A stretch of 63,805 bases of DNA, the filler included, from Vannella sp. (Eukaryota), in assembly GCA_023345925.1 (NCBI GenBank). It is 6 parts of 6 records of this genome, joined end to end, with 100 filler letters (N's around TTAATTAATTAA, not from the genome) between each part and the next. Parts side by side here need not be neighbours in the genome. Positions count along the whole stretch, not along the records: positions 32,053 to 45,851 come from JAJQQN010000202.1; 5 more parts are not named here. One strand, written 5' to 3'. The notes beneath the pieces are model-generated. The model did not search any database. It was given only the letters and a program-made list of their open reading frames with translations, and was not told where the DNA came from. The position numbers and the translations under genes are program-made. Positions 9,401 through 45,851 of this stretch are shown here, one piece after another (positions within the stretch are counted from its first letter, which is position 1; every line of letters starts with the position of its first letter).

Positions 9401-12400
9401 AGTATTCAAAGACTATTCTGGGTCGCTTCTCTCTTCGATTCTGGACATTTTCAAAAGGTTCAATATTTCTATCGAAATGCAATCTGGTAACTTTCTTGAG
9501 TTGGGAGGCTCAACGAATGGCATCTTCATCCCCGCCATTCTGGCTGCAGATATTCGTTACAACACGATTGTGAATCATTGGCCTCTCCAGTTTCCTGAAA
9601 CTTACGTTGAGCAGGGGCGCATCTATCGCTTTCACATGTACCCTCTTGATATTTTCCATCGCATCATGGAGTCTGTATTGAAGCTACCGCGCTTACGAGC
9701 TCGTCTTGTGTGGAAGAATGGATTGATTATTGAGGTTGACTTTGTTTCTGCGACAAAAGAAACCAGGGAAGACTTCCCCAAGCAGTATGCGTATGTCTTA
9801 TTCAGTAGTAATTTGGAACTTTGCATTCGGGTTCGAACACCGCGCGCTCAGCGATTTGGAGGAAGCTCTCTCCTTCGATCTCTGGTGAATGCGATTGAGA
9901 TTCAGATAGAAACCGCTAAGGCTGAAGTGAAGAGAATAGTACCGTGTTCTCATTGTATCGCCAAACGGAATAGCAGTAACGGCCATTCTTCTTCCGTCTG
10001 GAGGACATCACGGTGCGACCAGGTACTTGGCTCGGGGTCTCACGAAGGAATCTTTGAATTCCCCTTGCAAGAATGTGTTAACGCTCTGTTCTTGAGTGAG
10101 AGGTCTCTGTGGTGCAACCATATAAGGAGCCCATCTCGCCGTGTTCGATTGGTTGAGCTAGCACCTGATATTGCGCTCTCTCACATTCCCTTTATCAATA
10201 GTAAGCAGTTGGAAGTTGCCAAGGAAATAGGAGCGGGTGCATTTGGCACTGTTTACAGCGGTACTTTAAACATTCCAGGATCTCAACGCTCTCTTGACGT
10301 TGCAGTGAAGCGCATGAAAGAGGATTCTCAGTTTTCTGTCGACACATTCTTGGAGTTCCAAGCAGAGGTCCAAATAATGTCTGAAGTCAAGAGTGACTTT
10401 GTGGTGAATATGTTTGGCATTACATTAGAGCCCCTTCAGATAGTTCTTGAGCTCGTATCAAAGGGAGATCTCTTTGGCTTGCTGCATCCAAGCCGTAAAT
10501 CTGGGTCCGAAGGAATGTCACTCAGCAAGATACCAAGTAAAGACTTTCCTTGGAAAGAGAGACTTCTGATTGCTCTGGACATTGCTCAGGGCATGGCTGC
10601 TTTGTCTTCTCAAGAGCCTCCAATTGTACATCGCGACCTTCGAAGTGCCAACATATTCATTCATAGCCGATCGCTCGAACCGACCGCAGTTCGGGCAAAG
10701 GTGGCAGACTTTGGTCTATCTCGCTTTGTGTCTGCTCCTCTCAACGGATCTTTGGAGACCTGGAGATGGCTAGCACCCGAAGTGATCAGTCCAACAGCAA
10801 CCTACGGCATTGAGTCTGATATTTACAGCTTCGCCATTATCTTGTGGGAGATTGGATCTTGTTGTTATCCCTTTGATTCATATTATAGCGACGAATCAAT
10901 GTCCTATCTCAGCGCCAATCTCAAAACTCGCCTCCTTAATGAGGAAAAGCTGAAAGCGGGAATCATTTTTGATAACGTACGCCCTCCCCTCGACTTAGTG
11001 AAAGTAGGAGAGGTCAATCAAACTGTGGAAACGCGCGAGGAAGCTGAAAGGGCTTGTCAAGTCCTCCACGAACTCATTAAAGCCTGTTGGGTTGTTGATC
11101 CACAGAGCCGTCCGAAGTGGGACGAAGTCATTCAAAAACTACGGGATGCCCTTCAGCTCCACACACACTTTGAAGAGGGCCATCCTCACGAATTAACTGA
11201 CTCTCTTGTCGATGTCCCTCAGGCCGGTAACCAACTCATGAAGAAAATGGCCGCTCACACGAGCGGAACGCCACATACTAGTGATTCTTCCTTTGTAGCC
11301 AGCTCCACTGGAATTATAATGGACCATTTCGTCTCCTGTGAAGATGACAAACAATTTACTAGTGCCATCCTCGTACCTGGGACTCCGCTAACAAGCCCCT
11401 CGGAAGAGTATTTGTGGACTTCCACAACCGGAGGAGACATACTCGTATTTAACATGTCCACTGTAAGACCAAAACCATCTTCCGTCCTCTCTAACTCTGA
11501 AAAGGTCGTCAAGCTGAAACACTGGAACGCTCATTCCAATCGAATCATAGCGCTTGTAGCAGCACCTCATAATGATCACCAAGTCGTCTGGAGCATCTCC
11601 AAGAGCGGAAGAATCAAAGTATTCCATCAAACGGTATTCTAGAAGATCCATGTTAGGCCAGTGACTGACTTTTGGATAGAATATGGACCTCATTCGAGAA
11701 TTCAAAGCCCCTAAAAAGTGCCGTCATGTGGAGGGCACCCAACTCATTCACAATACCAAGGGCCAGTGGTTCATTTGGGTGTGGGCGATATCTTTTGTGC
11801 ACTCGCATATCTATATCTACGACGTCGATAGCTTGAGTGTTATTCGTGAGTTGGTTATTGACCGGAAACGAAAAAGCATCTCGGCTCTCAAGCAGATGCC
11901 AAACGGCCAGATTTGGATGGGATTCTCTGATGGACACATTCGTTTGTATAATCCAGATAGCCTTGACCACATGGACTGGCCTGATGCATTTCGCTATGAG
12001 ATTACAGCTCTTTCTCACTTGCCCCTCTCTGGGGCAAGCCGAGAAGGGGCTTCTTCGCATTTCTTAGCGTGTGGTTCTGATAGCCACGGCTGGGTCACTG
12101 TCTGGCGCGTGGAAGGAGAATACGATATCCATCAAATCGCCAGTTCAGAAGCGCACATTGGCACGTCAGTCACTTGTCTGGCAGCGTGCCCACTTCTACC
12201 CAGTGAAGCAGAAGGGGATGTTGACAATCTCCTTCCGAACTCGCCTCGACAAACACTCAACGATTCAGAGCTGCGACTCTTCGATGACTGGCAAAAGCTC
12301 TACGAAGTGGTAGAAGAGGGAGGCGCCAACACCAGCTTTACGACCAATTCAAGCACAATGGATTTAAATGAGAGCTTCTCACTTTCAGAGACTTCTGCAC

Positions 12401-12696
12401 CCTCCTTCCCCAAGTTTGGCCGAGAGATTCGCAGGCGCCTTCCGCGCCTTGTCACTTTCCTCGTATCTGGTGACCTAGACGGCCGTCTCATCATTTGGGA
12501 GTCCAAAGAGGTGTGTTTCCCTTCTCTCCTCTATTCACTGAGTGCTCACATTCCCTAGCCCCGTCCAGTCCAAGAAATTGCTTCTCAAGAGCCTCATCAT
12601 GGAGCCATTCTCGGCATCTTTAACGGCAGAGAGCGGCTCTGTGTGGTCTCTGCGGACCGTATCATCAGTCTGTGGCATCCTTTCTGGGAGATGTGA
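6417..12696 (+). CDS. ROCO (LRRK-like) kinase: UBR-type Zn finger, ankyrin repeats, short LRR, ROC, COR, TKL kinase, WD40-like C-terminus; multi-exon
   Basis: CVSC..ICCLWCAKKCHAGH..CDCG; ankyrins (TPLHIAC, TPLMLAA); LDLQDNLLDSIP LRR; P-loop GDRGSGKS; VGTHDD; VILNPHW COR motif; GAGAFG/VAVK/HRDLRSAN/DFG/APE kinase; joined through ~50-nt GT-AG introns. Confidence 0.88.
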
Positions 12697-20325: not shown

Positions 20326-20895
20326 AACTCATTCCCAATTCCTTGGAGCTCCCAGAGGGCCTCCTTCCTGCTCGAAGCTCCAAACGTCACAGTTGTAAGT
20401 CATGCCAACAGGTATTCAATGCTAACTTGGCTCTGGATGGGTCCCTTGGGGGGTTGTCAAGTGACAGACATTCAAGTGAGAGAAGTTTGTGACAAATGGA
20501 GCATCTGAAGCTCAGTGACCGTTACCTTCCGTTACCTTCCGTTAGGCTCCTCTCCCGCCTGCCTGTGTGTCTCAGCCTCGTCCCTAGGCATCCTCCTCGT
20601 TCTTTTCCAGCCTCCTCTCCTCACAGGGGAGTAAAACACTCACCAGTTCCTCAACCAGTCCCACTGCTGTTTGCACACCGTTTAACAGTTAGTGCAATCA
20701 ATGGGTTTATATGCTTCATTAGAGCTTGCAAAGGAGGTCTCCTTCCTTCGAGTAGTTTGAGTGACTCAAAACCTCATTCTTGAACCACTCTCGTAGCTGT
20801 TGGACCATAAGGAATGCTATCTTCTCTCGCGCTGTTGTCTTCTTTCATTGATGGAGGTGCGTTACCCTGTGAGCGCCCGAAGAAGCAAAAGACAG

Positions 20896-21775
20896 TCAAA
20901 GGAAGCGGGCACTCTTCTTTCTGCTGCGAGTGAATGAATGAGGGAGAGCGGGCTGAATAGGGCAACGTGTAGCAGTGAAATGGTTGAGTGATCCCGATCC
21001 CAAGTTCTCCGTCAGCGTTTCCTCCGAAGACCAGAAGGCCTCCTTCCTGTGGGAACACCAATGAATGGGAATTTCCCGCAACCAGGGCGCTTGTTCTCTT
21101 CAATGAAGGTATCAAAGTGGGTGCGCGCTTTCTGAGTTTCTCGCCCGTTCCCAATTGCCCGAATTCACCCCATCCCCAGGTCCAGACGCCGCCATTCTCA
21201 TCCAGAGAGAGTGTATGATGCAATCCGCAGGAGGCTGCAAGCATGGGGGGGATGTTTTTGATTCGCTGCAGCTTTGAGACATCCTCATTAGGGCGCCCCA
21301 GTTGGCCTTCAGAGTTGGCTCCAAAAGAGAAGACGCCTCCTTGCGAGTCGATGAAGATCACTCCATCGGAGAGAGCAGCCAGACATCGAAGAGGTCCTGA
21401 AGACTGTTGATCTATCCGATGAATGGGGGTCGGCTGGAGAGCCCCGTTGGTGTAGCCGAGGTGGCCCAGTTTCCCTTGGGAGTTTCCGACCAGCACCCAG
21501 AGACCTTCTTCGGCCTCTGCCACGACAAAGTTGAAGCCGCAAGATACCTTAATGATTGGAGGGAGGCCTTCTAATCGTTTGGGAAGAGAACACGCCCAAG
21601 AGAGATGGGTACAGCTTGTCCACACCCAAAGGACGCCTTCGGTGTCCATTGCTGCGCTGTGAGGGTGGCCAGTAGCCACTAACGCGATACAAGGTAGTTC
21701 TGGTATTCTCTCGAAGGTGAGAGAGCTAATGGAGGACCGGAAGCAACCAGCCTGCCACACACCGCCCTCTGCATC
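20896..21775 (-). pseudogene. RCC1-repeat family member, 5'-truncated by contig end, with a frameshift near 20970-21000
   Basis: RCC1 blades (SCGLHHTLSLDENGGVWTWGWGEFGQLG); the family C-terminal PALPHSFTRSRKKSARFL* lies in a different frame from the main ORF. Confidence 0.6.
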
Positions 21776-22939
21776 NNNNNNNNNNNNNNNNNNNNNNNNN
21801 NNNNNNNNNNNNNNNNNNNTTAATTAATTAANNNNNNNNNNNNNNNNNNNNNNNNNNNNNNNNNNNNNNNNNNNNCGCTCATCTAAATCCCCCAAGCTGC
21901 TCCGAAGTGCCCCACACACAACGTCCTCCATGGCGGGTTCCGCCATGGAAAGAAAACTGGCCAAACACTTTGATTTGGACACATTAGCTTTGCAAAGGTC
22001 TAAAATCTTTTCCTAGACCAATGCAGGCGTGAGTTGAGTTGGGTTGGGGCTAAATGCGATTGTCTGGGGGTGGCGCCATCGAGTTCCGGTTCAGCAGGAA
22101 GCTGCTTCCTAATCTAATGGTGCACCCCTTTTACCAAACGTTTTAGCGCATGCAATCCTCCTTAGTCTTTTTCCGTGTCTCGCGCAAGGTTGATGGCTGA
22201 GTCAGAGAGTTGCTGCCTTCTGGCTTGCCCACACCAGGCGGAGGCGCGCTTCCTGAGCCATTCTCCGTTCACTCCCCGAGAAGCGCGTTGGTTCAGAGAG
22301 CTCTTCTTCTCTTTCCATCGTTCGAGGAGGATTTCACTGAATGCTGCACCTTTCACGAAGGTCTTCGGGAGAAACGACTGCAATCAATTCCACCCTATTC
22401 ACGATAAAAGAGTGCTCAGCAGTCAACATTGAGAAAGTGGCTCTGGAAAGGAAAACGATCTTTCGACACGTTCCATTCGAACGAGTGAATCAATAATACA
22501 GTCTTGTTGAAATAGAAACATCCTAAGAACTGTCATCGAAGACAGTTGATACAGTTCAGCTTGGATGACATTCGTAAGTAATTGAGTAGTCTGTAAGTGA
22601 CTGATGGGGAAGGAGGAAGAAGAGGAAGATGAAAAGTAGAGGAGCTCACCATAATCGGGTAGACGCCTTTGGGGAAGAAGAGGAAGATGAGAAGTAGAGG
22701 AGCTCTTCAACATGACAATTTCAAGGGGAATCGAAAGAAACATCTCTTTTGTATGTTCATTCGGATCTCAGTTCGTTTTGTTTCATTCTTCGCCGACCCT
22801 TTGCCGTTGCGGCTTGTGTTGGAGGTGAGAGCCTGGTCCATTAGGTGGGCCTCTTGGGAGAGAATCTGATACATGGGCATGGTCTTAGGGATCTGATTTT
22901 GCAAGTTCCTGATTCTCTTCTGCCAAACGAACTGCTCTG

Positions 22940-30092: not shown

Positions 30093-30467
30093 AGTGGCCC
30101 GTCCAAAGGAGAAGGAAGGAGAAGATGTTTTTGAATGGAAGAAGATAAACCATTCCATTATGTATAAACCTGAGGACCCAATTCTTGAGCACTCTCTTAG
30201 TAAGGTCTTTGGAGAGAATTCACCGCCTCAGTAAAGAGAGAGTTCACCGCCCCAATAAACCAGGCGTCCGCTGGCTTCCATTGGAAACCAACAGGAGTTG
30301 CGTTATCACCTCAAATGAATCCTCTTGGCGTCGTGAATCTCTCAATGGGAACTCACTTGGTGTTCCAAAGCCATTTTACTTCCCATTTACTTCTAGTTGG
30401 GCAAGAGGCGGATGTCCAATAAATGTACGCTCTTATCAAGAGATAAGATCTAAAGATCATTATTGGA

Positions 30468-31547
30468 ATGCCTTTTGGTGATCACACGCTACTCTTCTCC
30501 CTCGAAGGCGGCCTTTTGGCTTTTGGAGAGAACAGTAACGGCCAACTCGGTCTTGGCCACAAGGAACGCCAACAACAACCAGTTGAGGTCCCCTGGGATG
30601 GTCCACAGCCGGTTCAGGTGGACTGGGGAGAGTACCACTCCCTCGTCCTTGATGCGGAGGGCGGTGTGTGGCAAGCTGGCCACTCTCAGTCCTTCCTCTC
30701 CTCTCATTCCTTCCAGCAAGTACCAGAGCTTCCTTGTATTGCTTTGGTGGCTGCTGGCTCCTCTGACAACGCTGCCGTCGACACCGAAGGCGGCCTTTGG
30801 GTGTGGACGAACAAAGAACCTCATCCTTGGGCGCGCTATCTTCCGAAACGATTGAAGGGTCTCACTCCCATCCTCAAGGTGGCTTGCGGGAAAGAGTTTC
30901 TGGTGGCAGAGGCCGAAGAAGGCCTCTGGGTGTTGGGATCGAACTGCTATGGACAACTGGGTCTCGGCCACACCTACTTCACTCACGTACCGGCCTTCAT
31001 TAAGGTGAAAGGACTTTCAAAAGGACCACTACGATGCCTAGCTGCCCTCTACGAAGCCGTGATTCTCATCGACGCCGAAGGAGACGTCTTTTCTGCAGGA
31101 AGCAACTTAGTTGGGGGACTGGGGCGCTCTTCTTGGTCACATACCGACTCAAAGTTTAAGCAAATCAGCAAAATCCCTCCCATGCTCGCGGTCTCCTGCG
31201 GACAGGGACACACTCTCTGTCTGGATAAGAATGGCAACGTCTGGACCTGGGGAAGCGGTGCACACGGGCAATTGGGGAGAGATGCACCTCCTCCTTTTCT
31301 TATCTTTTATGGGCACCAACCCGTTCAGGTCCCTTCGTTGGAGGAAATAGGCGCCCTTGTTGCAGGAGCGCACCATTCTTTGGTGCTCCCACAGGAAGGC
31401 GGCCTGCTGGCCTTCGGATACAATGATTATGGACAACTTGGACTCGGCCAATGTGGCTCTCAGGAATATCCCACGCGCTCTCCTCTCAAGCCCGCTCTCT
31501 CTCCTTCAGAAGTCGCCCTCAGAAGAAAGAAGAGTGCTCGCTCCTGA
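30468..31547 (+). CDS. RCC1-repeat beta-propeller protein, intronless
   Basis: Repeated xGxNxxGQLGLG and (C/A)GxxH(S/T)L motifs; ends RRKKSARS. Confidence 0.9.
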   Translation: MPFGDHTLLFSLEGGLLAFGENSNGQLGLGHKERQQQPVEVPWDGPQPVQVDWGEYHSLVLDAEGGVWQAGHSQSFLSSHSFQQVPELPCIALVAAGSSDNAAVDTEGGLWVWTNKEPHPWARYLPKRLKGLTPILKVACGKEFLVAEAEEGLWVLGSNCYGQLGLGHTYFTHVPAFIKVKGLSKGPLRCLAALYEAVILIDAEGDVFSAGSNLVGGLGRSSWSHTDSKFKQISKIPPMLAVSCGQGHTLCLDKNGNVWTWGSGAHGQLGRDAPPPFLIFYGHQPVQVPSLEEIGALVAGAHHSLVLPQEGGLLAFGYNDYGQLGLGQCGSQEYPTRSPLKPALSPSEVALRRKKSARS

Positions 31548-32052: not shown

Positions 32053-32188
32053 TTCTGATTTTGAAGTCAACACTGATGGGGCTCTCTGTGTAGGAATCAT
32101 CTGCAAATCGGAAAAGCAAGCAAGACTTGCCAACACCCGCGCCACCAACAAGTAGGAGCTTGAAAAGTAGATTGTTTTCAGGGTTCAT
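32053..32188 (-). CDS. Rab1-like small GTPase, N-terminal part only (contig-truncated)
   Basis: [42 protein letters not shown] closely resembles the Rab1 N-terminus. Confidence 0.85.
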
Positions 32189-32303
32189 GTTGAAAGCTGA
32201 GATGATGCAATCGAGCGAGCGGAGAGCAAATGCACGCCTGAAACTTTGGTCTGGGAATTGGGCAAGTCAGTGTTCGCCGAATTCACCAGGCTCGTGTGCT
32301 TGG

Positions 32304-32361
32304 GCATTTCACCTTCACATTTCCCTTGCATTTCACCTTCACATTTCCCTTGCATTTCACC
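32304..32361. repeat. 24-bp tandem repeat, ~2.4 copies (GCATTTCACCTTCACATTTCCCTT)
   Basis: Exact copies visible in the intergenic region between divergent genes. Confidence 0.9.
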
Positions 32362-32435
32362 CTCTCCCAACCCCGGCAAAGTGCCGAATGAATGGCAAAC
32401 AATTCCTTTATTCCTGTTCATTTCTTCTTCCTTCC

Positions 32436-34264
32436 ATGGGTGAGCTTCACGGGGTGCCCGAATGGGGTCCTCTCTTGCAAGAAGAAGACTTGACGATGGA
32501 GGAGTTGAAGGGAGCGTTTGCGCTAGGGAAGCTTCGTTCCTTGAGCTCTGAACGACGTGTGGTCGTTACTGAGCACTTGGTCCACTGCCGAAAGTCGGAT
32601 CTCACACCGACGGCCCCACGGTAAACACTCCCTGCGTGTGAACTCTTCGTTTCTTATGTATGGTTAGACCACAACCCGTCCCTTCTCCTTGTCTCCAAGT
32701 GATAGGACACATCATCCCCTCGACATCAAATGAAGAAGCGAGTTCTTGCCTTCAACGCGTCCTGGTCATCAGTGAGCACCCACCAGACGTTAACTTACTT
32801 CCTATCCATCGCCTTTTGGACCCCTTGACCCCGCAGACCGGTCAGCTCGTCATGAAGGGCGTTCATTCGTTGGCTCGAAGACTGAGAGAGTTGCACACTC
32901 ACAATCTCTCCATGTGGGGACACAATATCTCCCTCGAAGCTATTCTGGTTCGTTGATCGAAGAAAGAGAGCCTTGTGTTGACACAAAGCAGGTCTCAGAA
33001 TCCTGGGAGCTTTTTCTTCTTCCCTTTTCCAGCCAAGTGCAATGGAAAGTGGATGAAACATCAATCCTTTATCTCACTTTCCCTTGGGCTGAAATGGTGT
33101 CTCAAAGGAACTTTGATTTGGCTTGCCAGAAAACACTTTCTGATGCGCAATGCCAGGACATCCGAGCGTTTCAAGTTCTTCTTTCCCAATTACTTCTTAT
33201 CTGCGACGGTAAGTTGCACGAAACCTTGAGCCATCTCTAACATTCACTAGGTAAACCGGGTTTATTGGAAAGACAGGGTGTTCCTGCCTTAACCAGGCTG
33301 AAGGAAGATGCTGAGGAGACTATTCCTCTACTTGATTTAACGAACTTGGAAAATCAGGAAATAGCTACCTATGCTTGGTCCTGCTCGTTCCTTCCTTGGA
33401 GGTACGAAGTCCCTTTTGGGTTGCAATGCAGTGTCTCACAGTAGTTTTCAAGTCCGGCTTCAAGTGTTTCTTTATCAGCTGATGCTTTTTGGGTCCATGT
33501 TCTGACTGGCCTGACCAGCGGACAAGCTTCGAGGGTGTTTCGATGTGATACTTCCACAATCGATTTCTGGAATGTCCGCTTCCCCATGTCCATCAGCACA
33601 TCGATTGAAGAGCTTGTGGATCGAATTTTCCAACACTGTGACCAATTGACTACTAGGGAGAGCAAAAGTCATCTGGCTATGACAGCCCTATTTGCAGACA
33701 TTATTGGACAGTTTGATCGCCGTGCGTAGACTATCTAGAAACGGGAATCTAACCTAACCATGCTATAGGGACTGGCACTGTGAAAGACGATTCGACAGTT
33801 TCTATCAGAGAGTTCAGAACAATTCTCTCTTATTTCGGTCCAGTTGGACCTGATCTGATCAGAACTTGTACAGACTATGCAAGAGCAAAGTGAGTTCCTC
33901 AAAAATTCACTCCAAAACTCACTATCTCGATCACAGGTGGTTCCACGGAATGGTTTCAAAGCGGGAACTGAAAGACTTTTCCCGTTTACAAAAAGATGGC
34001 TCTTTCTTGCTTCGCTTTAGCGCTTCCCAACCTGGCAGTTTTGCTTTTACAAGGAAAGCAAACGGCAAAGTCGAGAACTTTATTATTCAGCACTCTTTCG
34101 GGAAAGAACACGTTTTCGATCATCGAGAGTATGAGAGTTTGTCTGAATTGGTTTTCAAGAAGAAACGCAAGTGGGATTTATCCTCTTGCGATGGCTCTCC
34201 ATTTCAAATCATCTTCAGCCCCAAGTCCCCTCAATGCTTCTCTCGGTACACTGAATTCAATTAA
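32436..34264 (+). CDS. SH2-domain protein with EF-hand-like linker, no kinase domain; multi-exon
   Basis: IDFWNVRF..VSIREFRTILSYFGP linker, then WFHG..GSFLLRFSASQPGSFAF SH2; N-terminal exons less certain. Confidence 0.72.
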
Positions 34265-34344
34265 CAAGAACCGAATTCCACTGCCATCTTCTTCAACTTG
34301 TTATGAAGCAGAATCCCTCGTGATGTAAGGCCAGCTTTTTGGGT

Positions 34345-35403
34345 TTATGAAGGGTTGGATGTTACTATTGAGCGGGCACTTTTACTGCGATTACACAGTG
34401 GATGAGTGGTATCTCCGATACCACAAGTTCCTCTCAAAGTAGAAACCGTGGGAAGAATGTAGCTACATTTGGGGCCGAGTTGTCCAAAACAGCTGTCTCC
34501 AAAGACAATCAGGGTTCCATCCTCCTTGTACACCAGAGAGTGCGATTCACCAGCTACAATCATGCTTATCCTCTTGAGTACACGCAAGGGCTGGAGTTCA
34601 TTGGAAGTGGAGGAAGTGCCCAGCTGGCCTTGCTCGTCACTGCCCCAACTCCAAACACTTCCTTGCTCATCCAAAGCGAGAGCGTGAGAGTATCCACAGG
34701 AGGCTTGTCGCATAGGAGGCAAGCAGGGGATGCTCTGAAATGATGAGTCACCGGTTCGACCTAGCTCGCCTTTGGAGTTGTCCCCAGCTGTATAGACACT
34801 TCCATCCGATCCAATCGCAAGAATGCTTCCGCTGAAAGCTTTCAGACAGCGCAGATGGCCTCGAAAGTGCCCCACAAGTTGAAAAGGAGTCTCTTTCGAG
34901 CTTCCAAGGCCCAGTTGTCCGTTTTTGCTGTTCCCTAGGAGCCAAAGGCAGTCATTGGCCTCTGCAACGAGGAACCTATCTCCACAGGCTACTTTGTATG
35001 CCCATGGGAGACCCTCCACTGGCTTAGGAGTGGAAGAAGCCCAAGGGAGGTCTGATGAACTCGTCCACACCCAAACAACTCCTTCCTTGTCCAACGCGGC
35101 GCTGATCTGGTTTCCTGCTGATATGAGGATGATAATAGGAAGCTCTGGTACTCGCTGGAATGTCAGGAAAGTGCAGGAGGGCCGAGAGAGCCCTGCTTCC
35201 CACACACATCCTTCCTCATCAAGCACCAACGAGTGAGCGCCTCCCCAGTCCACTTGGAACGGTGCAGGACCTTCCCACGGTACCTCTTCGGGATCCCATT
35301 GAGAGTTCGTGTGGCCCAAGCCCAGTTGGCCCGCGAAATTGCACCCAAAAGCCAACAGACCCTCCTTGACCGTTAGAAGGAGCGTGTGCTCACCAAGAGG
35401 CAT
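34345..35403 (-). CDS. RCC1-repeat beta-propeller protein, intronless
   Basis: MPLGEHTLLL..FGCNFAGQLGLGH; colinear with the 30468 copy; ends NRSKSARSIVTSNPS. Confidence 0.9.
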   Translation of the reverse strand: MPLGEHTLLLTVKEGLLAFGCNFAGQLGLGHTNSQWDPEEVPWEGPAPFQVDWGGAHSLVLDEEGCVWEAGLSRPSCTFLTFQRVPELPIIILISAGNQISAALDKEGVVWVWTSSSDLPWASSTPKPVEGLPWAYKVACGDRFLVAEANDCLWLLGNSKNGQLGLGSSKETPFQLVGHFRGHLRCLKAFSGSILAIGSDGSVYTAGDNSKGELGRTGDSSFQSIPCLPPMRQASCGYSHALALDEQGSVWSWGSDEQGQLGTSSTSNELQPLRVLKRISMIVAGESHSLVYKEDGTLIVFGDSCFGQLGPKCSYILPTVSTLRGTCGIGDTTHPLCNRSKSARSIVTSNPS

Positions 35404-35447
35404 GGACAGTATGATGGTGCTGCGCCATTTAATGCCAGTGCATTGAT

Positions 35448-38213
35448 TCAGCCTTTGAATTGACTAACACGGTTCCGGAGGAGTGCCAGAAGGTCGTTAT
35501 GGGACAAAGTGTTTTCCACTCGGTCTTCGCGCATCATGTGAGTGAATTGGAGGTCATTGGCACTGCCTTGCATCACCAAATAGAGGGGAGGAGTGTAGGA
35601 ACGTTGCCGGCGGATCTGTTCTAAGATCTGATTGATCTTGTGAACAGTTGGTCGAGAATCATCCGTTGAAAGTTGCATTCCTGAAGACGCGGATGAGCGC
35701 AAGGAAGGCACATCAAACACCTCTTGCATAAACTCTGGTGCCACTGCATTTCCAATCCACATAAGTAAAAGAGTGGTGCCATCCAACAAGAAGCAGCCAC
35801 CAGACACTAAAGTCTTTCAATCGAGGTTAGAAGTCGCAAGAGATGAAGTTACAACCTACTTGCTGCCTCAGCTTCTGCCAAGGAGGAAGGATTACGTCAC
35901 CGGATTCGTTCCGAGTGCCAGCCATCTCTGACAGGTTGTGAAGGGCGAACATTCGCGGGTAGAGATACAAAGAGAAGTCTCGCAGTGGCATATTACGAAC
36001 CTGGAACCGTTCAGCCAAACGATAATCCACACTACCAGAGTGAGTTGGCTCCAATTCCTGACCTGGAAAGCATACCTTAATGGGTTATCCTTGAGCAATG
36101 GGCTCTTGAGAAGGCATGACTGGTACATTGGATACAAGCGCAAAGCTTCAGGGAGGGCCAAACCTTGTCCAACGTTCTCTCCTGAGTTGAATTTGAAACC
36201 TGTCAAAGGGGAAACACAATCTTCGATGACCTGCTCTCGCACCGACGATAAATCCTGAGACAAACAAGCCTCCATGTATCTGGAACAATTGAGATACACC
36301 AACGCATCCAAATCAATCGCAGCTATCACCTTCCTGTAATTCGAAGAAGTGGGAAGGCGGAGAGAATGAACTCGAATGCGACGTTCCCCAAAGGAAGTGG
36401 TGTATGCCACAACACACTGAATACCAGCGAAACTCTCATCAGGAAGGGAGTCTGCTACCTTGAAATTGGCACAAATCATTGTGTCACATGAAAGACTACT
36501 CAGGCACATGTCTGTCCCATTCTCCAATCGAAAAGAGCCCACAGAATTGACCAATTCGAGGCCTGTTCCAGTTCTGATTCTAATGATTGCGTCGGTTCCA
36601 CTGGTGCGAGTGAGAATTCGGTGGAGCTGCTGATGAAGCTTCAAGCGATCGGTGGCGTAGTCAAATCTAGAATAGAAATACATCTGCCCGCCTGTTGTCT
36701 GACACAGCGGCTTCACTGTTGCTACGTCAATGTAGCTAGAATTGAAAGGGAAAATAAAGTGGTCGTAGCTAATCCGGTACTTGCTGCAATCTCTCGCCAT
36801 ATCCTGGAAGTAGCTGTTTTGGTTCTGATACAGCTCCCTTTCCCTGGAAGTGCCCAACATTTCTGGTTTGAACCGATTCAGAAGACTGGCAGGGGGTGCA
36901 GAAGGTAAAGAGCTTTGCAGAATGATCACTTTCCCTCCAACATTCTTCAGCAGAAGCCCAGTAGTCCGCACCGCAATGGCTGTGCACACTGGAATCTCAG
37001 GATCTTCTTCTATCTCGCAAAGTTGAGGAAGCATCTCCAAGAACTGCTCAATTTGAGCTGCAGAGTTTCGAACAGAAACTAAAAGATTACCAAGAGGCTC
37101 GGTAGGGAGGTTGATGTCTTGGATATCAGGAGTAACATAGATTCTTGGCTTGCTGTAAGACTTATGCAGTCCGTAAAAGCGAATCTCGCGATGGAACGTG
37201 ACGAATCCAAAACGCACGGGACTGTTCCGTGGAAGAGTGCTGATGATAGCCCTCACACTTTCAGCAAAAGCATGAATTATCCCGCTCTTGAAAGCTTGAG
37301 AGCTTGTCTCTAACAGGAAAACAAACGAACCCGGCATGGAGGGTCTTTCCACATACTCTGCTGGGGCCACGTACTCCACACTCCCACAGCAAAGCTCCGC
37401 CCTCTGGTTGACATCCATTCGCAAGCCATCATGTCCGAGAGGTGAGAAGTAGTCTGAGCTAACCGGGTTCACGTGCTGGCAAAGATAGCACACAAACGCC
37501 TTTCCCCCTTCCACAAACTGATCCAGAGAGCTATGGTAGGCTTGGCAACGAGAGCAACGGACAATGCTAGGTCTTGGAGTGATCAATGGAAGCAGAGAGT
37601 CTCCAGGAAGAGCGTCTGCAAGAGGTTGTAGGACAAGACCCAGCGGCACTCCGACCTTAGAGGCCAGCTCTCGGCTGTTAGGGATGCAATACATGGAGGA
37701 CCTCATATAGCGGGGTCCGCAGTTGCCATGATCGAGACATACGAAGTCAGAAGCCGCTGGAGGAGGGATTGGGCTTGACTTAGTGAGGAACTGGAGGATC
37801 TCTCCCGGTCTTTGGTTTGGAATGAGCTGAGTAGGACAAGGAGGCTCCCCTGGCTCTCGGGATGCCCCTCCTGAGCGCAAGGGGTCCGAAAGAGGACCCG
37901 AAAAGGGTGAAGTGGCGGGTGAGAACTGGTACAAAGGAGGAGGAGCCTTGTTTGACAGCTCTGTGAAAGCACTAACACCTTGAGCTTCTCCGGGAACTAA
38001 AGAAGTAGCTCGTCCCTGCTGTTGGGGAGAACTGTGCAAGGAAGAAACAACAGAAGTCTCCCCAACCATCGGAGGAGGGGCGTACCTCCCTCGTGAAGTT
38101 GTGCTATCCACCGGAACAGCTCCAACTTGACTCTCTTGCTCAACAGCAGACAAGTTACCTCCCACAGCACCCGTGGCAAAGGCGAAAGGCGAGGTGACAA
38201 CCCGCCTCGCCAT
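35448..38213 (-). CDS. SEC24: COPII coat subunit Sec24
   Basis: GNCGPRYMRSSMYCIP, Zn finger RCSRCQAY..CYLC, RAELCCGSVEYVAP, GERRIRVH and YLYPRMF; 3' introns. Confidence 0.93.
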
Positions 38214-38290
38214 TCAGACTGAAAGAAAGTGACCCAGACTGTCTACCATAGCTTACATTAGCTACCCGCTGGTGATAACAGGCTTTGGGA

Positions 38291-41200
38291 ATGGGAAGAG
38301 GTCACTCTGTGATGGCCATAGGCGGTCGGCTGGTTTTCCTCGCGCTTCTTCTCTCTGTGGCTTGCCTTCTTCCACTTCAGCAGAAAGCATCCCTCAAAGA
38401 TCTCTGGATAGCGACTTCTGGCCCTTCCTGGACGCAGAACTACCCACCCTGGGACACTGCACAGGACCCTTGCGGTCCTCCAGCGTGGTTTGGCGTCCGA
38501 TGTGACGTTGATAAGGTGAATGTGATAGAGATTGCACTTGACAGTAACAACTTGATTGGTTCTCTGCCGGATCTGCTCCTTCCAGCGCTAACCACGTTGT
38601 AAGAGGAGAGACTTCGTCCCCTCTTCGCGCTGGATCACTCACTGGATAGATTAGGGGCTTGAGTAACAACAAGATCAACGGGAGTCTTCCAGAATGGCCC
38701 AGTTTGAAGAGTCTGGCCACCCTGTGAGTACTCGCTCTCCCCGAAGGCGGATACGCCTTTGAGGGGACCTCTATGGTGAACGTCACTCATCGGTTGCTTG
38801 AAGGAGTCTATCACGCAACGTGATTCAGGGTCCTCTTCCGGAATGGTCCAATCTGGTGAATCTAGTGACCATGTGAGTACTTTCTCTCCTCCTTTGAGGG
38901 CAGAATAGTGCATTGAGATGGCTGATGGGATGTTTGAAGGGACCTTTATGAGAACCAGATCAGCGGAACTCTCCCAGAATGGCTTACTCTGGAGAAGTTA
39001 GAGACTATGTGAGTATTTTCAGTCTTCCTCCTCTTTTTTTGCGGGGACGGGGTCCCCAGTGCCTCGATGTAACTAACCTAATGCTAAAGGACTCTTTACA
39101 CCAACTATATCAACGGAACACTTCCAGAATGGCCCAAGCTGGGGAAATTAGTGACAATGTGAGTGTTTTCATCCCCTTCAATATTGGAGGGGTGCCGCTA
39201 CACTCGATCGGCATGCCTTCTTCGAGTATATAACCCGCTAATGGAATGGTTGCAGGCGCTTGAGAAGCAATCAGTTGACGGGGACTCTCCCAGAGTGGCA
39301 CAATCTTACGGATTTGAACGAAATGTGAGATTGGCTCTTTGACAAAGAGCGCAGTGGTGGTGATACTTGTCATTGGTACTCACCAGATACTTGCAGTTCC
39401 ATGGAACTGAATAGGATTCGTGGGACTCTACCAGAATGGCCCTCTTTGAGTAATCTGTTAACTATGTGAGTAGTTCAGCCAATTGAAGCAATCAGCATTG
39501 ATAAGGAGCCCTCATGAACGATTGAAGGAACCTGAGATTCAACTTGATCAACGGAACTCTTCCGCAGTGGTACAATCTGAAAGAACTGCGCCAATTGTAA
39601 GTACCCTCAGTTGCCAAAGGGTTATGAGACCTCTTGGATAGGTGGCAACGAGCTGATAGAACGATTGCAGCAACTTGGACTTCAACAATATCAGCGGATC
39701 TCTCCACGAATGGCCCCATTTGTCTAATTTACGAGAAATGTGAGCTTTTTCAGCTCGATTCTCGAGAAATTGTGATGGCCAAGACATTAATGGAGTACTT
39801 GCAGATCCTTATTGACCAACAAAATCAACGGAAGTCTACCAGAGTGGTCCAATCTTACAAATCTGAAGCGAATGTGAGTTCTTTCAGACTGTTGGCGGGA
39901 ACCACGATCGTTCTGTCTTTTCAAACGCCTCTTTGATGTCAAGAGATCTCACTCAGTGTTTGAAGGAGACTCAATAACAACCGTATCATCGGAACACTGC
40001 CGTCCTGGTCCAATCTAGTTGCTCTGCAGGCGATGTAAGTAGTTGATGGTCCTCTCCTAGCACGGGCTGGGCAGGGGATAGATTGACCTTCACGGGATAC
40101 CGCTTTGATGATCTCTCACTCACCAGGGCATTTCAGAGCATGCAGATTTAACCAGATAAGCGGAACACTTCCAGAATGGCCCAATCTAGTGGAGCTACAG
40201 CTCGTGTGCGTATCCCTCTCTTCCTTTCGCGCGACGGGCAGCGAAGCATTGGCACCCTTTTGCGGATAAGAACTCATCGAATGACTTTAGAACCCTGGGG
40301 TTCAACAATATCACTGGAACCCTCCCAAATTGGTCCAATCTGAAGGAATTGTCTATCTTGTGAGCATTTTCGTGGAGTCATAATGTGAAGAGCACACCAT
40401 TATGCTATTACTCTATGATTGACAATGCCTTTTCTTACTCACTCCGTTCACAGATTCTTATACCTCAATAGTATTACTGGGACCCTTCCAGAATGGCCCA
40501 ATCTGACCAAAATGTATTCCCTGTCAGTACTTCCTGTTCAATGAGGGCCACTTCATGGCACGGACGCTTGTAGAGCAAAAACTCATATTTCTTAAGGGTC
40601 CTTTACAGTAACAGAATCAGCGGAACTCTTCCAAAATGGCCTAACATGACGAATCTGAAGAATGTGTGAGTTCTCCCACATTTCAGAGAGGTCAGGCAGC
40701 TTTCTAGTTCATTAAGTGCACTCTTTTGATGCAGATTACTAACATAGAACGACTTTAGATCCTTGGATTGGAACTCCATCAGTGGAACTCTTCCAGAATG
40801 GCCCAATTTGATTAGTCTATCTGTGCTGTGAGGAAGGGAAGGAAAATTATCTTGAGGTTCTCACCGATTTAATGAAGCTCCTTGAGAGATAATAGGATCA
40901 GTGGAACTCTTCCTGAATGGCCTAATTTAACAAATTTGTATGCCCTGTAAGTGCTTTCGCTTAAGTCAGAATTTCAAGGTTCCCGCAGTTGTATTTGGAT
41001 CAATCCACTCATTGGCTGTTTGCAGGAATATATATGATAACTTAATCAGTGGAACTCTTCCACAATGGTCCAACATGAAGACCCTGGCCTTTATGTGAGT
41101 CCCTGACTGATTAAGATGCAGATACTAAAATGTGACTATAGTGGCCTATTTAACAACAAGATCACTGGAACGCTTCCAGAATGGCCCTATATGAACTCTC

Positions 41201-44084
41201 TAACGTCCTTGTAAGTATTGGTATCTTGAGTTTGAAAGACATTTAACTCATCGATTGCTTGTAGTAACTTTGCCGAGAACCAGCTCACGGGACAGCTCCC
41301 GGAGTGGTCCAATATGTCGACTCTCAGTTTCATGTGAGGACTCTAATATAGGAGGGATGAAGGAGGCTACTTCGAACTGACGTGTGATTGCAGAAACTTG
41401 TGCCGCAACTCTCTCAGTGGAACTCTTCCAGATTGGCACAATCTGGGAGATCTCCGTGAAATGTAAGATTGATGAGAAGATGTAACATGAGTGCTCGGGT
41501 GATGATGAAACTGATCTAATACTGAAGGATTTTGTTCAACAACGAGATCACAGGGACTCTTCCTGAATGGCCCAACCTTACGAAATTGCAGATAATGTGA
41601 GGACCCAACAATATTCGACCCATCAATTAAGAGATCACTTACAATATTCCAGGGGCCTGCATAGGAACTCTATCAGTGGAACTCTTCCAGAATGGTCCAA
41701 CCTAAGAGATATCGGTCAAATGTAAGTACTGTCACACTTTCATCAACCGACTGAGATCACTCATTTAATGAATTCGTTCAGAATACTCTTAAGCAACCTC
41801 ATCAACGGGACTCTCCCAGAGTGGTCCAGTCTCAGAAACCTTATTTACTTGTAAGCTTTGAAGGGCCTGCCAATGCAATTGTAATCCTGTAGGGTGTTAA
41901 CCGACTGGTTTCAGAGACCTTTCCTTCAACGCAATAAGCGGAGATCTTCCAGAATACTCAAATATGCACCTTTTGAAATTCTTGTGAGTACTTTCAAGTA
42001 CCTTTTTAGCAAAAGCTGGACCGCCAAGTCGGAACACGAGTGCACTTCAGTGAAGGTTTGCTCACAAAATGCCTTCAGATACTTGTCCTCAAACCGTATC
42101 AGTGGCACTACACCAGAATGGGCCAATCTAATTAATCTGTCGGAATTGTGAGTATTCCTCTATCAGATGGCTGCATAGTGGGAGTATCGAATAAGCATGG
42201 GCCATGCATTTTCCTTGAGCTGGAGATTGTTGACTGATTGCTTTCAGAGATTTACATCGAAACAGGATCGTCGGCTCTCTACCAGAATGGAGAAATCTGA
42301 AGAACCTGGTGGACGTGTGAGTCCGCTGCCTCGGGAAAATGGGATCATTGAAGGATCTCACTTATCAGATGGTTGCAGAGACATGAACGGCAACAAGATC
42401 ATCGGACTTCTTCCACAATGGCCCAATATGACAAATCTGGAAATTGTGTGAGTGAAGCTAGAATAGGCCATTCTCTGCATAATCTCTTCTGTATCTTTGA
42501 TGGGAGATTCTCATATAAGGATTATAGGGACCTTGCTGGCAACCAGATCACAGGGACTCTGCCATATTGGAAAGAATTGAAATCTCTTTCGATTGCGTCA
42601 TTTGAAACCAATCAACTTTGTGGAGAATTGCCATATCCTCGTCCACTCAATTTCACTATCTACCTCACTGGCCAGGTGTTTAATTGCTCCCCTCTTCCAT
42701 CCGGTTATGAAGATAGTGGGGCAATCTGTGATAGCGTTAAAGGTATATGTGCCTCAGTATCGCCTTCACCCAGTGCAAGTGTCAGTATGACTGAAACGAC
42801 CACGCAATCTCCAACAAGCACTCTATCATTGACTGGCAGTACAAGTGCAAGTCTCCCTGGATCAATGATACCGAGCCAAACAACCACCCCAGTGGCAAAT
42901 GATCAAAGCCATTTCCCTTTCATCGGGGTGACTATCATTATCATTGTTGTGACGATTGCGTCTTTGATTGCTTGCGCTATTTGCGGGCTTCTTCTTGCTC
43001 GATTTGTTAAGAGGTCCAGAGTATCTTCTTTTGATTACGAACCTCTTGTGAATGTGTCGCTCTCTGAATTCAATGACGTTTCCAGCTTCCTATTCAACCC
43101 AAATGTCCCTTTGATTCCGCCAGGAGAGATTGAAGTTGGCCGCAAGATCGGCAAAGGAGCTACTGGTGTTGTTCGTGCTGGGGTCTGGACTTCAAAGTAA
43201 GCATCTGAGGGAGAACCATTCGCTTTCTTGTACTCAACAGCACCCAGAATCACTGGCTTAGAAGTATTAGTGGCACTGAAAGAGCTCCATCTTGGGATAT
43301 CTGATTTAAATGAAGAGGACCAGGCCCTGTTTATCCAAGAGATTCGACTGATGGATCAATTGGAGCATCCAAATATCGTCCGATCCTTTGGAGTCTCCAT
43401 CACTCAAGACTACTCCTCGCTTGTTCTTGTCTTGGTAAGCTCCCTGCATCCTACTACTAGGCCCGTACTGACTCCCAAGAAGGAATTAATGGAGCAAGGC
43501 AGTATCAAAGGTCTCCTACAGCATCAAGGTCTAACTTTCGAGGTCAAGAAGAACCTAGCCATTGGGGCTGCCTTGGGAATGTAAGAGGCTCCCCTCAAGA
43601 GTGACACCCTCTGACGTTGCACAGAGAATACCTTCACAAGAAACATGTTCTCCACCGAGATGTCAAGCTGGACAACCTCTTGGTGGATGAGCATTGGAAC
43701 TGCAAAGTCACTGATTTCGGGACGTCAAGGATTCTACCCACAGTATCCCGCGCTATGACCTGCACTGGCACTCCCACTTACATGGCTCCTGAAGTGCTCA
43801 CGAAAGAGAAATACTCGGAGAAGGCAGACATCTTCTCCTTTGGCATTGTCCTTTACGAGCTGTTTAGTGGACACCGGGCTTATTCTCTTGAGCCTTACAA
43901 GTCCATGAATGTGGCTGTCCTCAACTCTCGTGTGCTGGCTGGTGCCCGCCCTGCTTTAGATGATCTTCCACTTCAGTTGCATCAGCTTGTGAACGACTGT
44001 TGGAACCAAAAGCCCCAAAGACGTCCTCCCTGGGATGAAATCATCCCTCGTCTTCAAGCCCTCACTCCCAAGGAAGTGAATTAA
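38291..44084 (+). CDS. LRR receptor-like kinase: signal peptide, LRR N-cap, 27 single-exon LRRs plus terminal repeats, Ser/Thr-rich stalk, TM helix, TKL kinase
   Basis: Hydrophobic signal; LWIATSGPSW..WDTAQDPC..WFGVRC cap; repeats LxLxxNxIxGxLPEWxxLxxLxx; TM IGVTIIIIVVTIASLIACAICGLLL; GKGATG/VALK/HRDVKLDN/DFG/GTPTYMAPE. Confidence 0.92.
38655..42447 (+). repeat. Array of 27 phase-2 69-nt exons, each encoding one 23-aa LRR
   Basis: Each unit is AG|69 nt|GT (first 38655-38723, last 42379-42447), with a conserved GGAACTCTTCCAGAATGG-like core and unrelated introns. Confidence 0.9.
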
Positions 44085-44282
44085 ACTTCCTTTCCCCTTC
44101 AGAGAGCATTCAGAGAGTTCAAAGGGAGCTTGAGACTTTCAGTGAGACCTCCTTCGAAGCAGTTTCAGTCTCCCTCAAGAAAGAAGAAGGATGAGATTCA
44201 CTCATTTCCTGGAAATGAAGAACTTTCGTCTCCACCATTCCCACGAGGAGAGGAAACGAGCTTTTCATTTCTTCTTGGGTTG

Positions 44283-45617
44283 ATGTTTCGGGGCGTCTCC
44301 ACCATTCCTTTGAGATGTACCCGGCGTTTGGGAGCTAATGCCAGCTTCACACACCAGAGAGTGGTTGCTTGTCGGACGTATGCGAAGAGTGAGGGAGAGG
44401 GAGAGGAAGGGAGGGGTTGGTGCTCATGCTGGGACAGAGAAGAACACGAACATGGTCTCCAAAGGCTTTTCTATGGATGAGATCGTGGCTGCAGTGGAGA
44501 AGGAGCATGGTAAGGGCTCGCTCATCCGCTTGGGAAACACAATGAAGTCCTACGATCAAGTAAGGCCTCCCATTTCGCCGCCTTCCTTCCTTTGACGCGC
44601 CAATGACAGGAGAACGTGATCTCCTCTGGATCTATCAACCTCGATCTTGCCCTTGGCATTGGAGGCTTCCCACGCGGTCGAGTGTCAGAGATCTACGGGC
44701 CTGAGAGCAGTGGCAAGACGACTCTCGCCCTACACGTGATCGCGCAGGCTCAGAAACTGGGTGGAAAGTGTACCTTTATCGATGCAGAGCACGCTTTTGA
44801 TCCTGTCTACTCCCGCCAGATCGGAGTGAACGTGGATGAGCTCCTCGTCAACCAGCCCGAGCACGGGGAACAGGCCCTACAGATCGCTGACTCTCTCATC
44901 AAGTCCCAAATGATGGATGTCATCGTCATTGACAGTGTGGCTGCCCTCATCCCCAAGTCAGAGCTGGAAGGCAACATTGGGGACCATCACATTGGCGCCC
45001 AAGCTCGTTTGATGAGCCAAGCGCTGCGCTTCCTCACTGCTTCACTCAGCAACTCACCCACCGTGCTGATCTTCATCAACCAGATCCGCCACAAGGTTGG
45101 AGTGATGTTCGGGAGTCCGGAAGTGACTTCGGGAGGGCAAGCCATGAAGTTCTACTGTTCTATCCGCCTTGACGTGCGCCGCGTAGCCACGAACAAGAAG
45201 GGAGAAGAGGCTACGGGGAATCAGATTCGTGTGACAGTAGCAAAGAACAAGCTCGCCCCGCCCTTCCAGAAAGCTCACTTTGACATTGAATTCGGTCGAG
45301 GTATCTCCCGTGCTGGGGAGCTCGTGGATCTGGGTGTCTCTACGGAGGTTCTTGAGAAGTCTGGGTCTTGGTACTCTTACAAGGGAGAGCGCCTCGGACA
45401 AGGACGCGAGAAACTGAAGCTCCTTCTCGAAGAGAATGACGAACTTGCCAATGAATTGGACGTAGCCATCCGTCACCGCCTCTTCCACGCCAAGCAGACG
45501 CCTACGCCGACCATCTCCGACCAAGAAGCAGAGGATTCCGCCCCCGAGGAAGTAACAGTCGAAGAGGAAGAAGAGGAGGAAGCCGTTATCGACGACAGCA
45601 TCGAACCCAAGGAGTGA
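44283..45617 (+). CDS. recA: Bacterial-type RecA with mitochondrial-like presequence, two 5' introns and an acidic tail
   Basis: [55 protein letters not shown] and GSWYSY; N-terminus [16 protein letters not shown]. Confidence 0.95.
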
Positions 45618-45707
45618 ACCCTCTTCTAAACTAGCTAAAACATGCATGCCTCCACTTTCGACTAGTTTGGGAGGGAAGAGGGGTCCAAAGGATCACTTTT
45701 TGTTGGG

Positions 45708-45851
45708 ATGCTCGGCTGGGTGGTGGAGTGGCTCTATCGTTCGGCGACTACGTTGGCTGTGGAGACTCCTGTGGTGGTGGCTGGGCTATTGGGTTTCAGT
45801 GGTGTGGTGTTGCTAGTGCTTTTGGGGGCCATTGGCGCTCTGGCGTACATG
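45708..45851 (+). CDS. Partial hypothetical membrane protein (N-terminal TM), contig-truncated
   Basis: ATG followed by a long hydrophobic stretch that runs into the spacer. Confidence 0.4.

What the first reader, a model, noticed from the sequence alone, without database searches (positions are those of the whole stretch)
38655..42447. Modular receptor kinase: 27 interchangeable one-LRR exons with a hypervariable binding face
Seen: 27 consecutive exons of exactly 69 nt, all phase 2-2, each encoding one 23-aa LRR. Every junction splits an N-T|N codon, so joining any two exons keeps the frame and always gives L/I/M/V/F, never a stop. The scaffold (N-x-I-x-G-x-LPEW) is conserved, while the beta-strand positions differ in nearly every exon (GLSNN, DLYEN, RLRSN, SMELN, ACRFN, SLDWN, NFAEN, GLHRN, DMNGN). 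Known: one-repeat-per-exon LRR shuffling has been described for brown-algal ROCO genes, and variable concave faces characterise recognition LRRs. Inference: this could be a diversifiable non-self/prey/kin-recognition receptor in a protist, varied by exon skipping or exon shuffling.
Basis: partly seen in the sequence, partly recalled or inferred. Interest (0 to 1): 0.9.

Follow-up and report, generated by a model that had tools for sequence, protein, structure and literature searches.

The report
One-repeat-per-exon protist receptor kinase
This gene of an unidentified protist, likely an amoeba, encodes a predicted cell-surface receptor kinase whose 27 middle binding repeats each sit on their own 69-base exon; the repeats are old, diverged copies in a fixed order, a layout known from brown algae and ciliates, and nothing seen here shows active shuffling.

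Summary
There are 27 exons of 69 nt, phase 2-2, one 23-aa LRR each, inside a predicted 1188-aa receptor: signal peptide, about 30 plant-type LRRs, stalk, one TM helix, RD kinase. All 729 exon joins give L/I/M/V/F, but only because the intron splits a conserved hydrophobic NTN codon.

The exons are old (at most 72.5% identical). No dead or inverted exons occur. Contigs from three runs keep the order at 28 of 28 junctions. Allelic differences are mostly intronic, with no amino-acid change on the face. Face omega is 1.8 with one synonymous rate but 1.1 (not significant) with local rates.

Exon skipping is untested.

The closest known case is the Ectocarpus type II-exon LRR-kinases: same boundary, no shuffling found. 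Tetrahymena phase-2 LRR exons are another precedent. The scan has noted similar one-LRR-exon arrays before, in other genomes. Verdict: a new member of a known kind.

The parts
38312..38598 (+). Exon 1: predicted signal peptide, Cys-containing N-cap, first LRR (alternative ATG at 38291)
   Evidence: N-cap region aligns at 27-50% identity over 36-84 aa to several LRR proteins
38655..42447 (+). 27 exons of 69 nt, phase 2-2, one 23-aa LRR each. Starts: 38655, 38804, 38940, 39090, 39256, 39397, 39528, 39671, 39805, 39966, 40137, 40291, 40454, 40597, 40759, 40878, 41026, 41142, 41265, 41394, 41528, 41653, 41782, 41915, 42079, 42248, 42379
38599..42527 (+). 28 introns of 47-102 nt around the LRR exons; GTRAG donor in 26 of 28, branch-like YTNAY in 27 of 28
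42528..43196 (+). Exon 29: last full LRR, one degenerate LRR, Cys C-cap, Ser/Thr-rich stalk, predicted TM helix (about 42925-43005), juxtamembrane part, kinase Gly-loop
   Evidence: hydropathy peak in windows starting at aa 844-860
43248..43434 (+). Kinase exon with VALK lysine and alpha-C Glu
43480..43580 (+). Kinase exon (acceptor at 43480 or 43483, both in frame)
43625..44084 (+). Last kinase exon: HRD-x-K catalytic loop, DFG, APE, stop
35892..38153 (-). Neighbour: Sec24 gene, head to head, about 160 bp from the receptor ATG
44420..45617 (+). Neighbour: intron-containing RecA gene, likely organelle-targeted (start approximate)

Best explanation
The gene encodes a predicted single-pass LRR receptor kinase that is likely spliced with all 27 one-repeat exons in fixed order and likely binds one set of outside ligands on the concave face of a long solenoid. 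Shown by the sequence: the exon layout, an open 1188-aa model, kinase catalytic motifs, and the same exon order in allelic contigs. Inferred: the array arose long ago by repeated duplication of an exon-plus-intron unit, which phase symmetry allowed. The scaffold has since been under purifying selection (omega about 0.08), while face residues changed by point substitution at neutral rate or faster (omega 1.1-1.8). Recognition diversity would come mostly from many paralogous genes, each with its own fixed face, not from isoforms of one gene. Ligand binding would activate the Ser/Thr kinase, by analogy with plant LRR-RKs; prey, pathogen or neighbour sensing is plausible but untested.
For: Open model with one stop and all catalytic motifs. 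Exon identity: mean 57%, maximum 72.5% over 351 pairs, no distance trend (Mantel p 0.22); no block-duplication signal. No exon copy outside the gene in the window; best outside nhmmer hit E 0.64. All 28 of 28 introns are bridged in the same order by at least one contig of three runs. Allelic differences in the array: 17 in 2066 intron bases, 4 in 1863 exon bases, 3 of them synonymous; 1 non-synonymous seen against about 12 expected at the intron rate, P about 1e-4; all listed indels are intronic. [quoted passage not shown] Family: 231 of 288, 172 of 207 and 167 of 196 laid contigs fit only partly, and their loose ends carry the same splice motifs; 9 contigs differ at one kinase site in X1. Precedent: Ectocarpus type II-exon LRR-kinases show face selection but no shuffling (PMC3341825).
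Against: The paralogs were seen only as short matched cores, so exchange between genes is not excluded. Synonymous change is about half as fast in the exon core as at its ends (0.88 vs 1.92, p 1.6e-4), which gene conversion in the core could cause. With one synonymous rate, face omega is 1.77 (LRT 12.1; 0 of 144 null simulations reach it). Face entropy ranks near the top of the controls (4 of 67 as high). The three runs are one study and may include the source of the window; contigs drop rare variants. PMC6142364 names E. siliculosus and B. natans as exceptions where skipping goes with short introns.
Confidence: 0.65

Rival explanations
1. Ongoing germline shuffling across the family, as in Tetrahymena. 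Unequal crossing-over or gene conversion, seeded in the conserved 20-35-nt exon core, would move units between paralogs, and diversifying selection would act on the face.
For: Many contigs match the exon cores and run on as other exons with similar splice flanks. Synonymous sites in the core are over-conserved: same-codon fraction 0.42-0.74 against 0.20-0.51 expected at positions 6-14; dS core is below dS ends. Exact shared runs of up to 24 nt between exons lie in the core. No part of an exon unit correlates with any other in Mantel tests, which fits scrambling but also saturation. Face omega exceeds 1 under a shared dS.
Against: No listed joint has more than 38 nt on its shorter side (15 of 135 rows shown; 15 of 21), so no whole exon-intron unit was seen in a second context. 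No pair of exons in the gene exceeds 72.5%. No dead or inverted exons. The gene sits between Sec24 and RecA, not in a cluster. 18 distinct related exon peptides match these exons at 11-15 of 21 residues, no better than exons of the gene match each other. Core conservation could be a splicing-enhancer or codon effect.
Confidence: 0.2
2. Isoform repertoire by exon skipping. One gene would give many receptors of different length, and each skip would build a new beta-strand from the halves of two exons.
For: Every join keeps the frame and a hydrophobic residue (729 of 729). The junction lies inside the strand. Ectocarpus ROCO genes with such exons have up to nine splice variants (PMC11378527, section 15).
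Against: Introns are 47-102 nt with near-uniform strong donors (26 of 28 GTRAG) and branch motifs (27 of 28). The longest inverted repeats are exon-core look-alikes at 72-81%, and the rest are 24 nt or shorter, so no selector-type pairing stands out. Frame symmetry is explained by the duplication history alone. All exons appear under purifying selection as a set.
Confidence: 0.1
3. A pseudogene, or an array stitched together by the assembler from paralog pieces.
For: No single listed contig spans the whole gene, and many paralogous cores exist.
Against: Overlapping near-identical contigs bridge 28 of 28 introns. The frame is open over 1188 codons. SNPs avoid non-synonymous sites.
Confidence: 0.03

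Closest known systems
Ectocarpus LRR-kinases with type II LRR exons (Zambounis et al., PMC3341825; section 15 and passages read)
   Same: One LRR per exon; exon runs from xLxxNxL to LxxL, the same boundary as here; joined to a kinase; no reshuffled or inactivated exons found; variable sites on the concave face.
   Different: 72 nt and 24 aa there, 69 nt and 23 aa here. Seven loci there; likely more here. Different lineage, kinship not tested. Positive selection was significant there and is model-dependent here. The phase of type II exons was not stated in what I read; supplementary table 1 was not opened.
Tetrahymena LRR genes with 90-bp phase-2 exon arrays (Xiong et al., PMC6564038; passages read)
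   Same: Exactly equal exons, phase-2 introns, a junction residue shared by two exons, and a large family.
   Different: 30-aa repeats; near-identical exons are shared between genes and exon number varies from 1 to 51. No such recent exchange was seen for this gene.
Brown-algal LRR-ROCO genes with type I exons (PMC3341825; PMC11378527, section 15 and passages read)
   Same: One LRR per exon, phase 2, variable concave face.
   Different: Roc-COR GTPases, not TM kinases; offset exon boundary; inverted and dead exons in introns; splice variants reported. None of these is seen here.
Non-plant LRR receptor kinases of oomycetes, Monosiga, Chlorella and Ectocarpus (PMC3268121, PMC10463195; passages read) and plant LRR-RLKs such as ERECTA (26 introns; PMC3682895, passages read)
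   Same: Signal peptide, plant-type LRRs, one TM helix, kinase. The LRR-kinase fusion is reported to have arisen at least four times.
   Different: About 30 LRRs against up to 26 in the 2011 survey. The 23-aa repeat ends in LPxW. No amoebozoan term occurs in the main text of PMC3268121. The kinase's best PDB matches are DLK, EGFR and CTR1, not a plant RLK.
Bodo saltans GP46-like LRR surface proteins (named hits P0132 and P0184)
   Same: Similar GTLP-W repeat motif on protist surface proteins.
   Different: No HRD kinase motif found in them; kinetoplastid genes are intronless (recalled).

Membership tests
LRR receptor kinase (architecture) | N-terminal signal peptide | tested here: met
   Hydrophobic N-terminus, Kyte-Doolittle above 1.9 in windows 1-5; no dedicated predictor was run
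LRR receptor kinase (architecture) | Extracellular plant-type LRR solenoid with caps | tested here: met
   Exon profile hits PGIP, 2 sequences, E 1e-5; a 23-aa analogue, P0163, folds at pLDDT 89.6 and matches plant LRR-RK ectodomains. The gene's own product was not folded.
LRR receptor kinase (architecture) | One transmembrane helix | tested here: met
   Single internal hydropathy peak, windows starting at aa 844-860
LRR receptor kinase (architecture) | Cytoplasmic kinase with catalytic motifs | tested here: met
   PF07714 and PF00069; GxGxxG, VALK, HRD, DFG and APE present
Plant LRR-RLK (RLK/Pelle clade) | Kinase falls in the RLK/Pelle clade | tested here: inconclusive
   Best PDB matches are DLK, EGFR, CTR1 and LRRK1; no RLK/Pelle name among the 60 shown of 1203; no kinase tree built
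Ectocarpus type II-exon LRR-kinases | Exon boundary xLxxNxL...LxxL | tested here: met
Ectocarpus type II-exon LRR-kinases | 72-nt, 24-aa module | tested here: not met
   69 nt and 23 aa in 27 of 27 exons
Ectocarpus type II-exon LRR-kinases | Common descent of the kinase | not tested
   Ectocarpus sequences were not fetched
Actively shuffled LRR cassettes (brown-algal ROCO type I, Tetrahymena group III) | Dead or inverted LRR exons in introns | tested here: not met
   nhmmer on both strands: no hit outside exons below E 0.64
Actively shuffled LRR cassettes (brown-algal ROCO type I, Tetrahymena group III) | Near-identical exons within a gene | tested here: not met
   Maximum 72.5% over 351 pairs
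Actively shuffled LRR cassettes (brown-algal ROCO type I, Tetrahymena group III) | Near-identical exons shared between paralogs | tested here: inconclusive
   Only 20-38-nt core matches in the joint rows shown; tables were cut
Actively shuffled LRR cassettes (brown-algal ROCO type I, Tetrahymena group III) | Exon number or order varies between alleles | tested here: not met
   28 of 28 junctions in the same order across three runs of one study; contigs drop rare variants
Actively shuffled LRR cassettes (brown-algal ROCO type I, Tetrahymena group III) | Positive selection on the concave face | tested here: inconclusive
   omega 1.77, p 5e-4 with shared dS; 1.16, p 0.61 and 1.12, p 0.59 with local dS
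Actively shuffled LRR cassettes (brown-algal ROCO type I, Tetrahymena group III) | Alternatively spliced LRR isoforms | not testable with these tools
   Needs RNA reads of this organism
VLR-type somatically assembled receptor (definition recalled) | Incomplete germline gene flanked by donor cassettes | tested here: not met
   Complete open gene between Sec24 and RecA; no cassettes elsewhere in the window

The most novel reading that the evidence does not exclude
A probable amoeba carries a large family of receptor kinases built from hundreds of 69-nt one-LRR exons. Their conserved central core acts as a recombination patch that swaps strand units between genes, and skipping adds junctional diversity, giving a single-celled phagocyte a renewable prey or pathogen recognition repertoire wired straight to a kinase.
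Probability: 0.15. Interest if true: 0.75.

Novelty: new member of a known kind. Interest (0 to 1): 0.32.

Why it matters
As it stands, the finding adds a lineage with no close named relative (best named Sec24 match about 32%) to the eukaryotes with plant-like LRR receptor kinases. It also adds a 69-nt version of the one-LRR exon, in what looks like a large family. That supports repeated convergence on the same intron site in LRR genes and gives a candidate receptor family for sensing in a biofilm protist. It would matter much more if exchange between paralogs or exon skipping were shown, since in Ectocarpus the kinase class was the one that did not shuffle.

Tried and rejected
No whole genome was held, so paralogs could not be read in full. 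No RNA holder listed; this says nothing about expression.

Two exact-pattern scans of metagenome contigs, one splice-anchored and one for the exon core alone, returned 0 loci. A kinase search of longer proteins gave 2 hits at E<=1e-30 among 411 candidates, neither with an LRR domain listed. The profile search gave 674 hits; of the best 150, 27 had three or more 23-aa periods, 1 had an HRD kinase motif, and none looked like a spliced orthologue.

IQ-TREE codon fitting timed out and was replaced by my own MG94 fit on a FastTree tree. The joints in the laid contigs were rejected as exon skips or deletions: those shown have 20-38-nt sides in the conserved core, as paralogs would give. Intron homology beyond the splice signals was weak, 7 of 378 pairs at z>3. 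Tests for linked exon halves or an intron-centred unit found nothing.

The ESM Atlas gave no answer. Earlier-finding look-ups by genome and by sequence were empty. A paper search for amoeba LRR receptor kinase expansion with prey recognition found 0 papers at 4 of 5 terms; two searches listed no title or abstract start on one-LRR-exon kinases in Amoebozoa. The host could not be named.
Full report
Setting. The window is six pieces joined by N-linkers; the gene lies on the piece 32053-45851, between a head-to-head Sec24 gene and an intron-containing RecA gene. No genome is held. Three DNA runs of one biofilm-metagenome study hold 0.64-0.84 of the sampled words and may include the source. The host is an unnamed eukaryote. 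Sec24 has unnamed relatives at 39-55% identity and named ones at about 31-32%. In a sparse Sec24 tree of 33 sequences its clade joins the one holding Amoeba proteus at local support 0.90. A Roc-COR kinase, a cellulose synthase-like gene and RecA in the window fit Amoebozoa (recalled). 'Likely an amoeba' is therefore an inference.

Observation. Confirmed. The 27 exons are each 69 nt, flanked by AG and GT, and phase 2-2. Splicing them with a first exon and four downstream exons gives an open 1188-aa protein: signal peptide, N-cap, about 30 LRRs, C-cap, Ser/Thr stalk, one TM helix and a kinase with GxGxxG, VALK, HRD-x-K, DFG and APE. All 729 joins give L, I, M, V or F. That is a consequence of the intron lying after the T of an NTN codon at a conserved hydrophobic site, not a sign of design for skipping. 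The variable positions are 22, 23, 2, 4 and 5 (xxLxLxx), and also 7 and 19. In a folded 23-aa analogue, P0163, the main strands recur every 23 residues and cover the positions equal to 23, 1 and 2, and the model matches plant LRR-RK ectodomains. So the junction cuts the strand. The gene's own product was not folded.

Age of the array. Exon pairs are 57% identical on average and 72.5% at most (351 pairs), with no trend by distance and no block signal. Intron middles are mostly unalignable: 7 of 378 pairs at z>3 after trimming the ends, 16 of 378 with the ends kept. A DNA profile finds no extra, dead or inverted exon in the window. Those are the marks of shuffling in Ectocarpus ROCO genes (PMC3341825).

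Alleles. Near-identical contigs of the three runs bridge 28 of 28 introns in the same order (21, 16 and 19 per run; from the 24 of 257 pieces listed). Of 29 listed substitutions, 21 fall in the array: 17 intronic and 4 exonic. Three of the 4 are synonymous and one is Leu to Val at a scaffold site. At the intron rate about 12 non-synonymous changes were expected (P about 1e-4) and 2.6 on the face (0 seen, P 0.07). All 6 listed indel rows are intronic. Caveats: one study, low depth, some rows rest on a single contig under depth 5, and contigs drop rare or very divergent alleles.

Family. At 80% likeness, 231 of 288, 172 of 207 and 167 of 196 laid contigs fit only in part; this count includes the kinase region. 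Their loose ends read as other exons with the same acceptor and donor motifs, and the listed joint-bearing contigs have depths like the gene's own. Nine contigs differ at one kinase site in X1. This points to hundreds of related exons and ten or more genes, though congeners in the same samples cannot be excluded. The joints shown (15 of 135 rows; 15 of 21) have 20-38-nt sides in the core and are read as paralog matches. Eight of the 150 profile hits, picked by eye, are short ORFs from ENA contigs that read through introns; with two cluster members they give 18 distinct exon peptides with the same boundary. Most end in M-W, as a GTGA donor would if TGA were read as Trp (inferred). They match this gene's exons at 11-15 of 21 residues, no better than its exons match each other at 11-15 of 22.

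Selection. An MG94 fit with classes set beforehand gave omega 1.77 for the face, 0.70 for other variable sites and 0.08 for the scaffold (LRT 12.1); other trees and frequencies gave 1.9-3.3. None of 144 null simulations reached it. But the synonymous rate is uneven, 1.92 at the exon ends and 0.88 in the core (p 1.6e-4). With local rates face omega falls to 1.12-1.16 and is not significant. The face is clearly free of purifying constraint between repeats; positive selection is possible, not shown. Recombination and saturation weaken all these fits. As a control, 67 of the 150 hits had 12 or more repeats: median face entropy 2.63 bits, 4 of 67 at or above this gene's 2.84. Different residues on successive repeats are normal for LRR proteins.

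Splicing. Introns are 47-102 nt, with GTRAG in 26 of 28 and a branch-like motif in 27 of 28. Skipping is tied to short exons between long introns in most eukaryotes surveyed, with E. siliculosus and B. natans as exceptions (PMC6142364, passages). Skipping itself remains untested.

Mechanism. Most likely (0.65) a constitutively spliced receptor with a fixed face, one of many paralogs, whose array was built by old exon-intron duplications. Ongoing exchange between paralogs through the conserved core is the main rival (0.2), then isoforms by skipping (0.1). Ligand, dimerisation and a role in prey or non-self sensing are inferred by analogy only. Dictyostelium LrrkA links an LRR kinase to phagocytosis and killing (PMC7982419, PMC7003747; listing and abstract starts only). 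The kinase is of the RD type; that many plant immune receptors are non-RD is recalled.

Comparison. It works like a plant-type LRR receptor kinase and meets the four architectural features. It is not filed under the Ectocarpus type II class, because the module is 69 nt, not 72, and kinship was not tested; that class is still the closest in layout and also lacks shuffling. Tetrahymena has tens of thousands of 90-bp phase-2 LRR exons with junction residues (PMC6564038, passages). Brown-algal ROCO exons and gonadotropin receptor introns are phase 2 too (PMC11378527). LRR-kinase fusions arose at least four times (PMC3268121). PMC5296948 was searched by passage and gave no exon-level detail. No supplements were opened; supplementary table 1 of PMC3341825 bears on the phase of type II exons. 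The scan has noted similar arrays in other genomes; those notes are unchecked and were used only as a lead to PMC3341825.

Verdict. A real, well-formed gene and a new member of a known kind. What lifts it above routine is the apparent family size, the over-conserved exon core and the unnamed lineage. Interest 0.32.

Noticed in passing
window 38599-42527, donor sites: At these phase-2 GTRAG donors a retained intron gives an in-frame stop at once in 26 of 28 introns. Retention would yield truncated, possibly secreted LRR pieces or decay targets.
   Followed up: partly
window LRR exons, repeat positions 6-17: Synonymous sites in the exon core are over-conserved. Gene conversion or a splicing enhancer could explain it; unresolved.
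   Followed up: partly
window 38153-38312: The receptor and Sec24 start codons are head to head about 160 bp apart, which suggests a shared promoter.
   Followed up: no
window 38655-42447: 13 of 18 N-glycosylation sequons in the repeats lie at positions 17 and 9; only 1 is on a face position.
   Followed up: no
window 7698-12558: Roc-COR-kinase (ROCO) ORF followed by a WD40-like ORF; no LRR family hit in the long ORF.
   Followed up: no
window 2490-4469: Cellulose synthase-like GT2 gene beside a PPR gene.
   Followed up: no
window 20774-21823, 30447-31547, 34345-35463: Three separate RCC1-like repeat ORFs in one 64-kb window, perhaps another expanded family.
   Followed up: no
window 44420-45617: Intron-containing bacterial-type RecA with unnamed relatives at 86-94% identity, so close relatives of the host exist in other samples.
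   Followed up: partly
window 12921, 21776, 31953, 45852, 56497: Five linkers of two 44-N runs around a 12-nt spacer join six separate pieces; neighbours across them are not real neighbours.
   Followed up: yes
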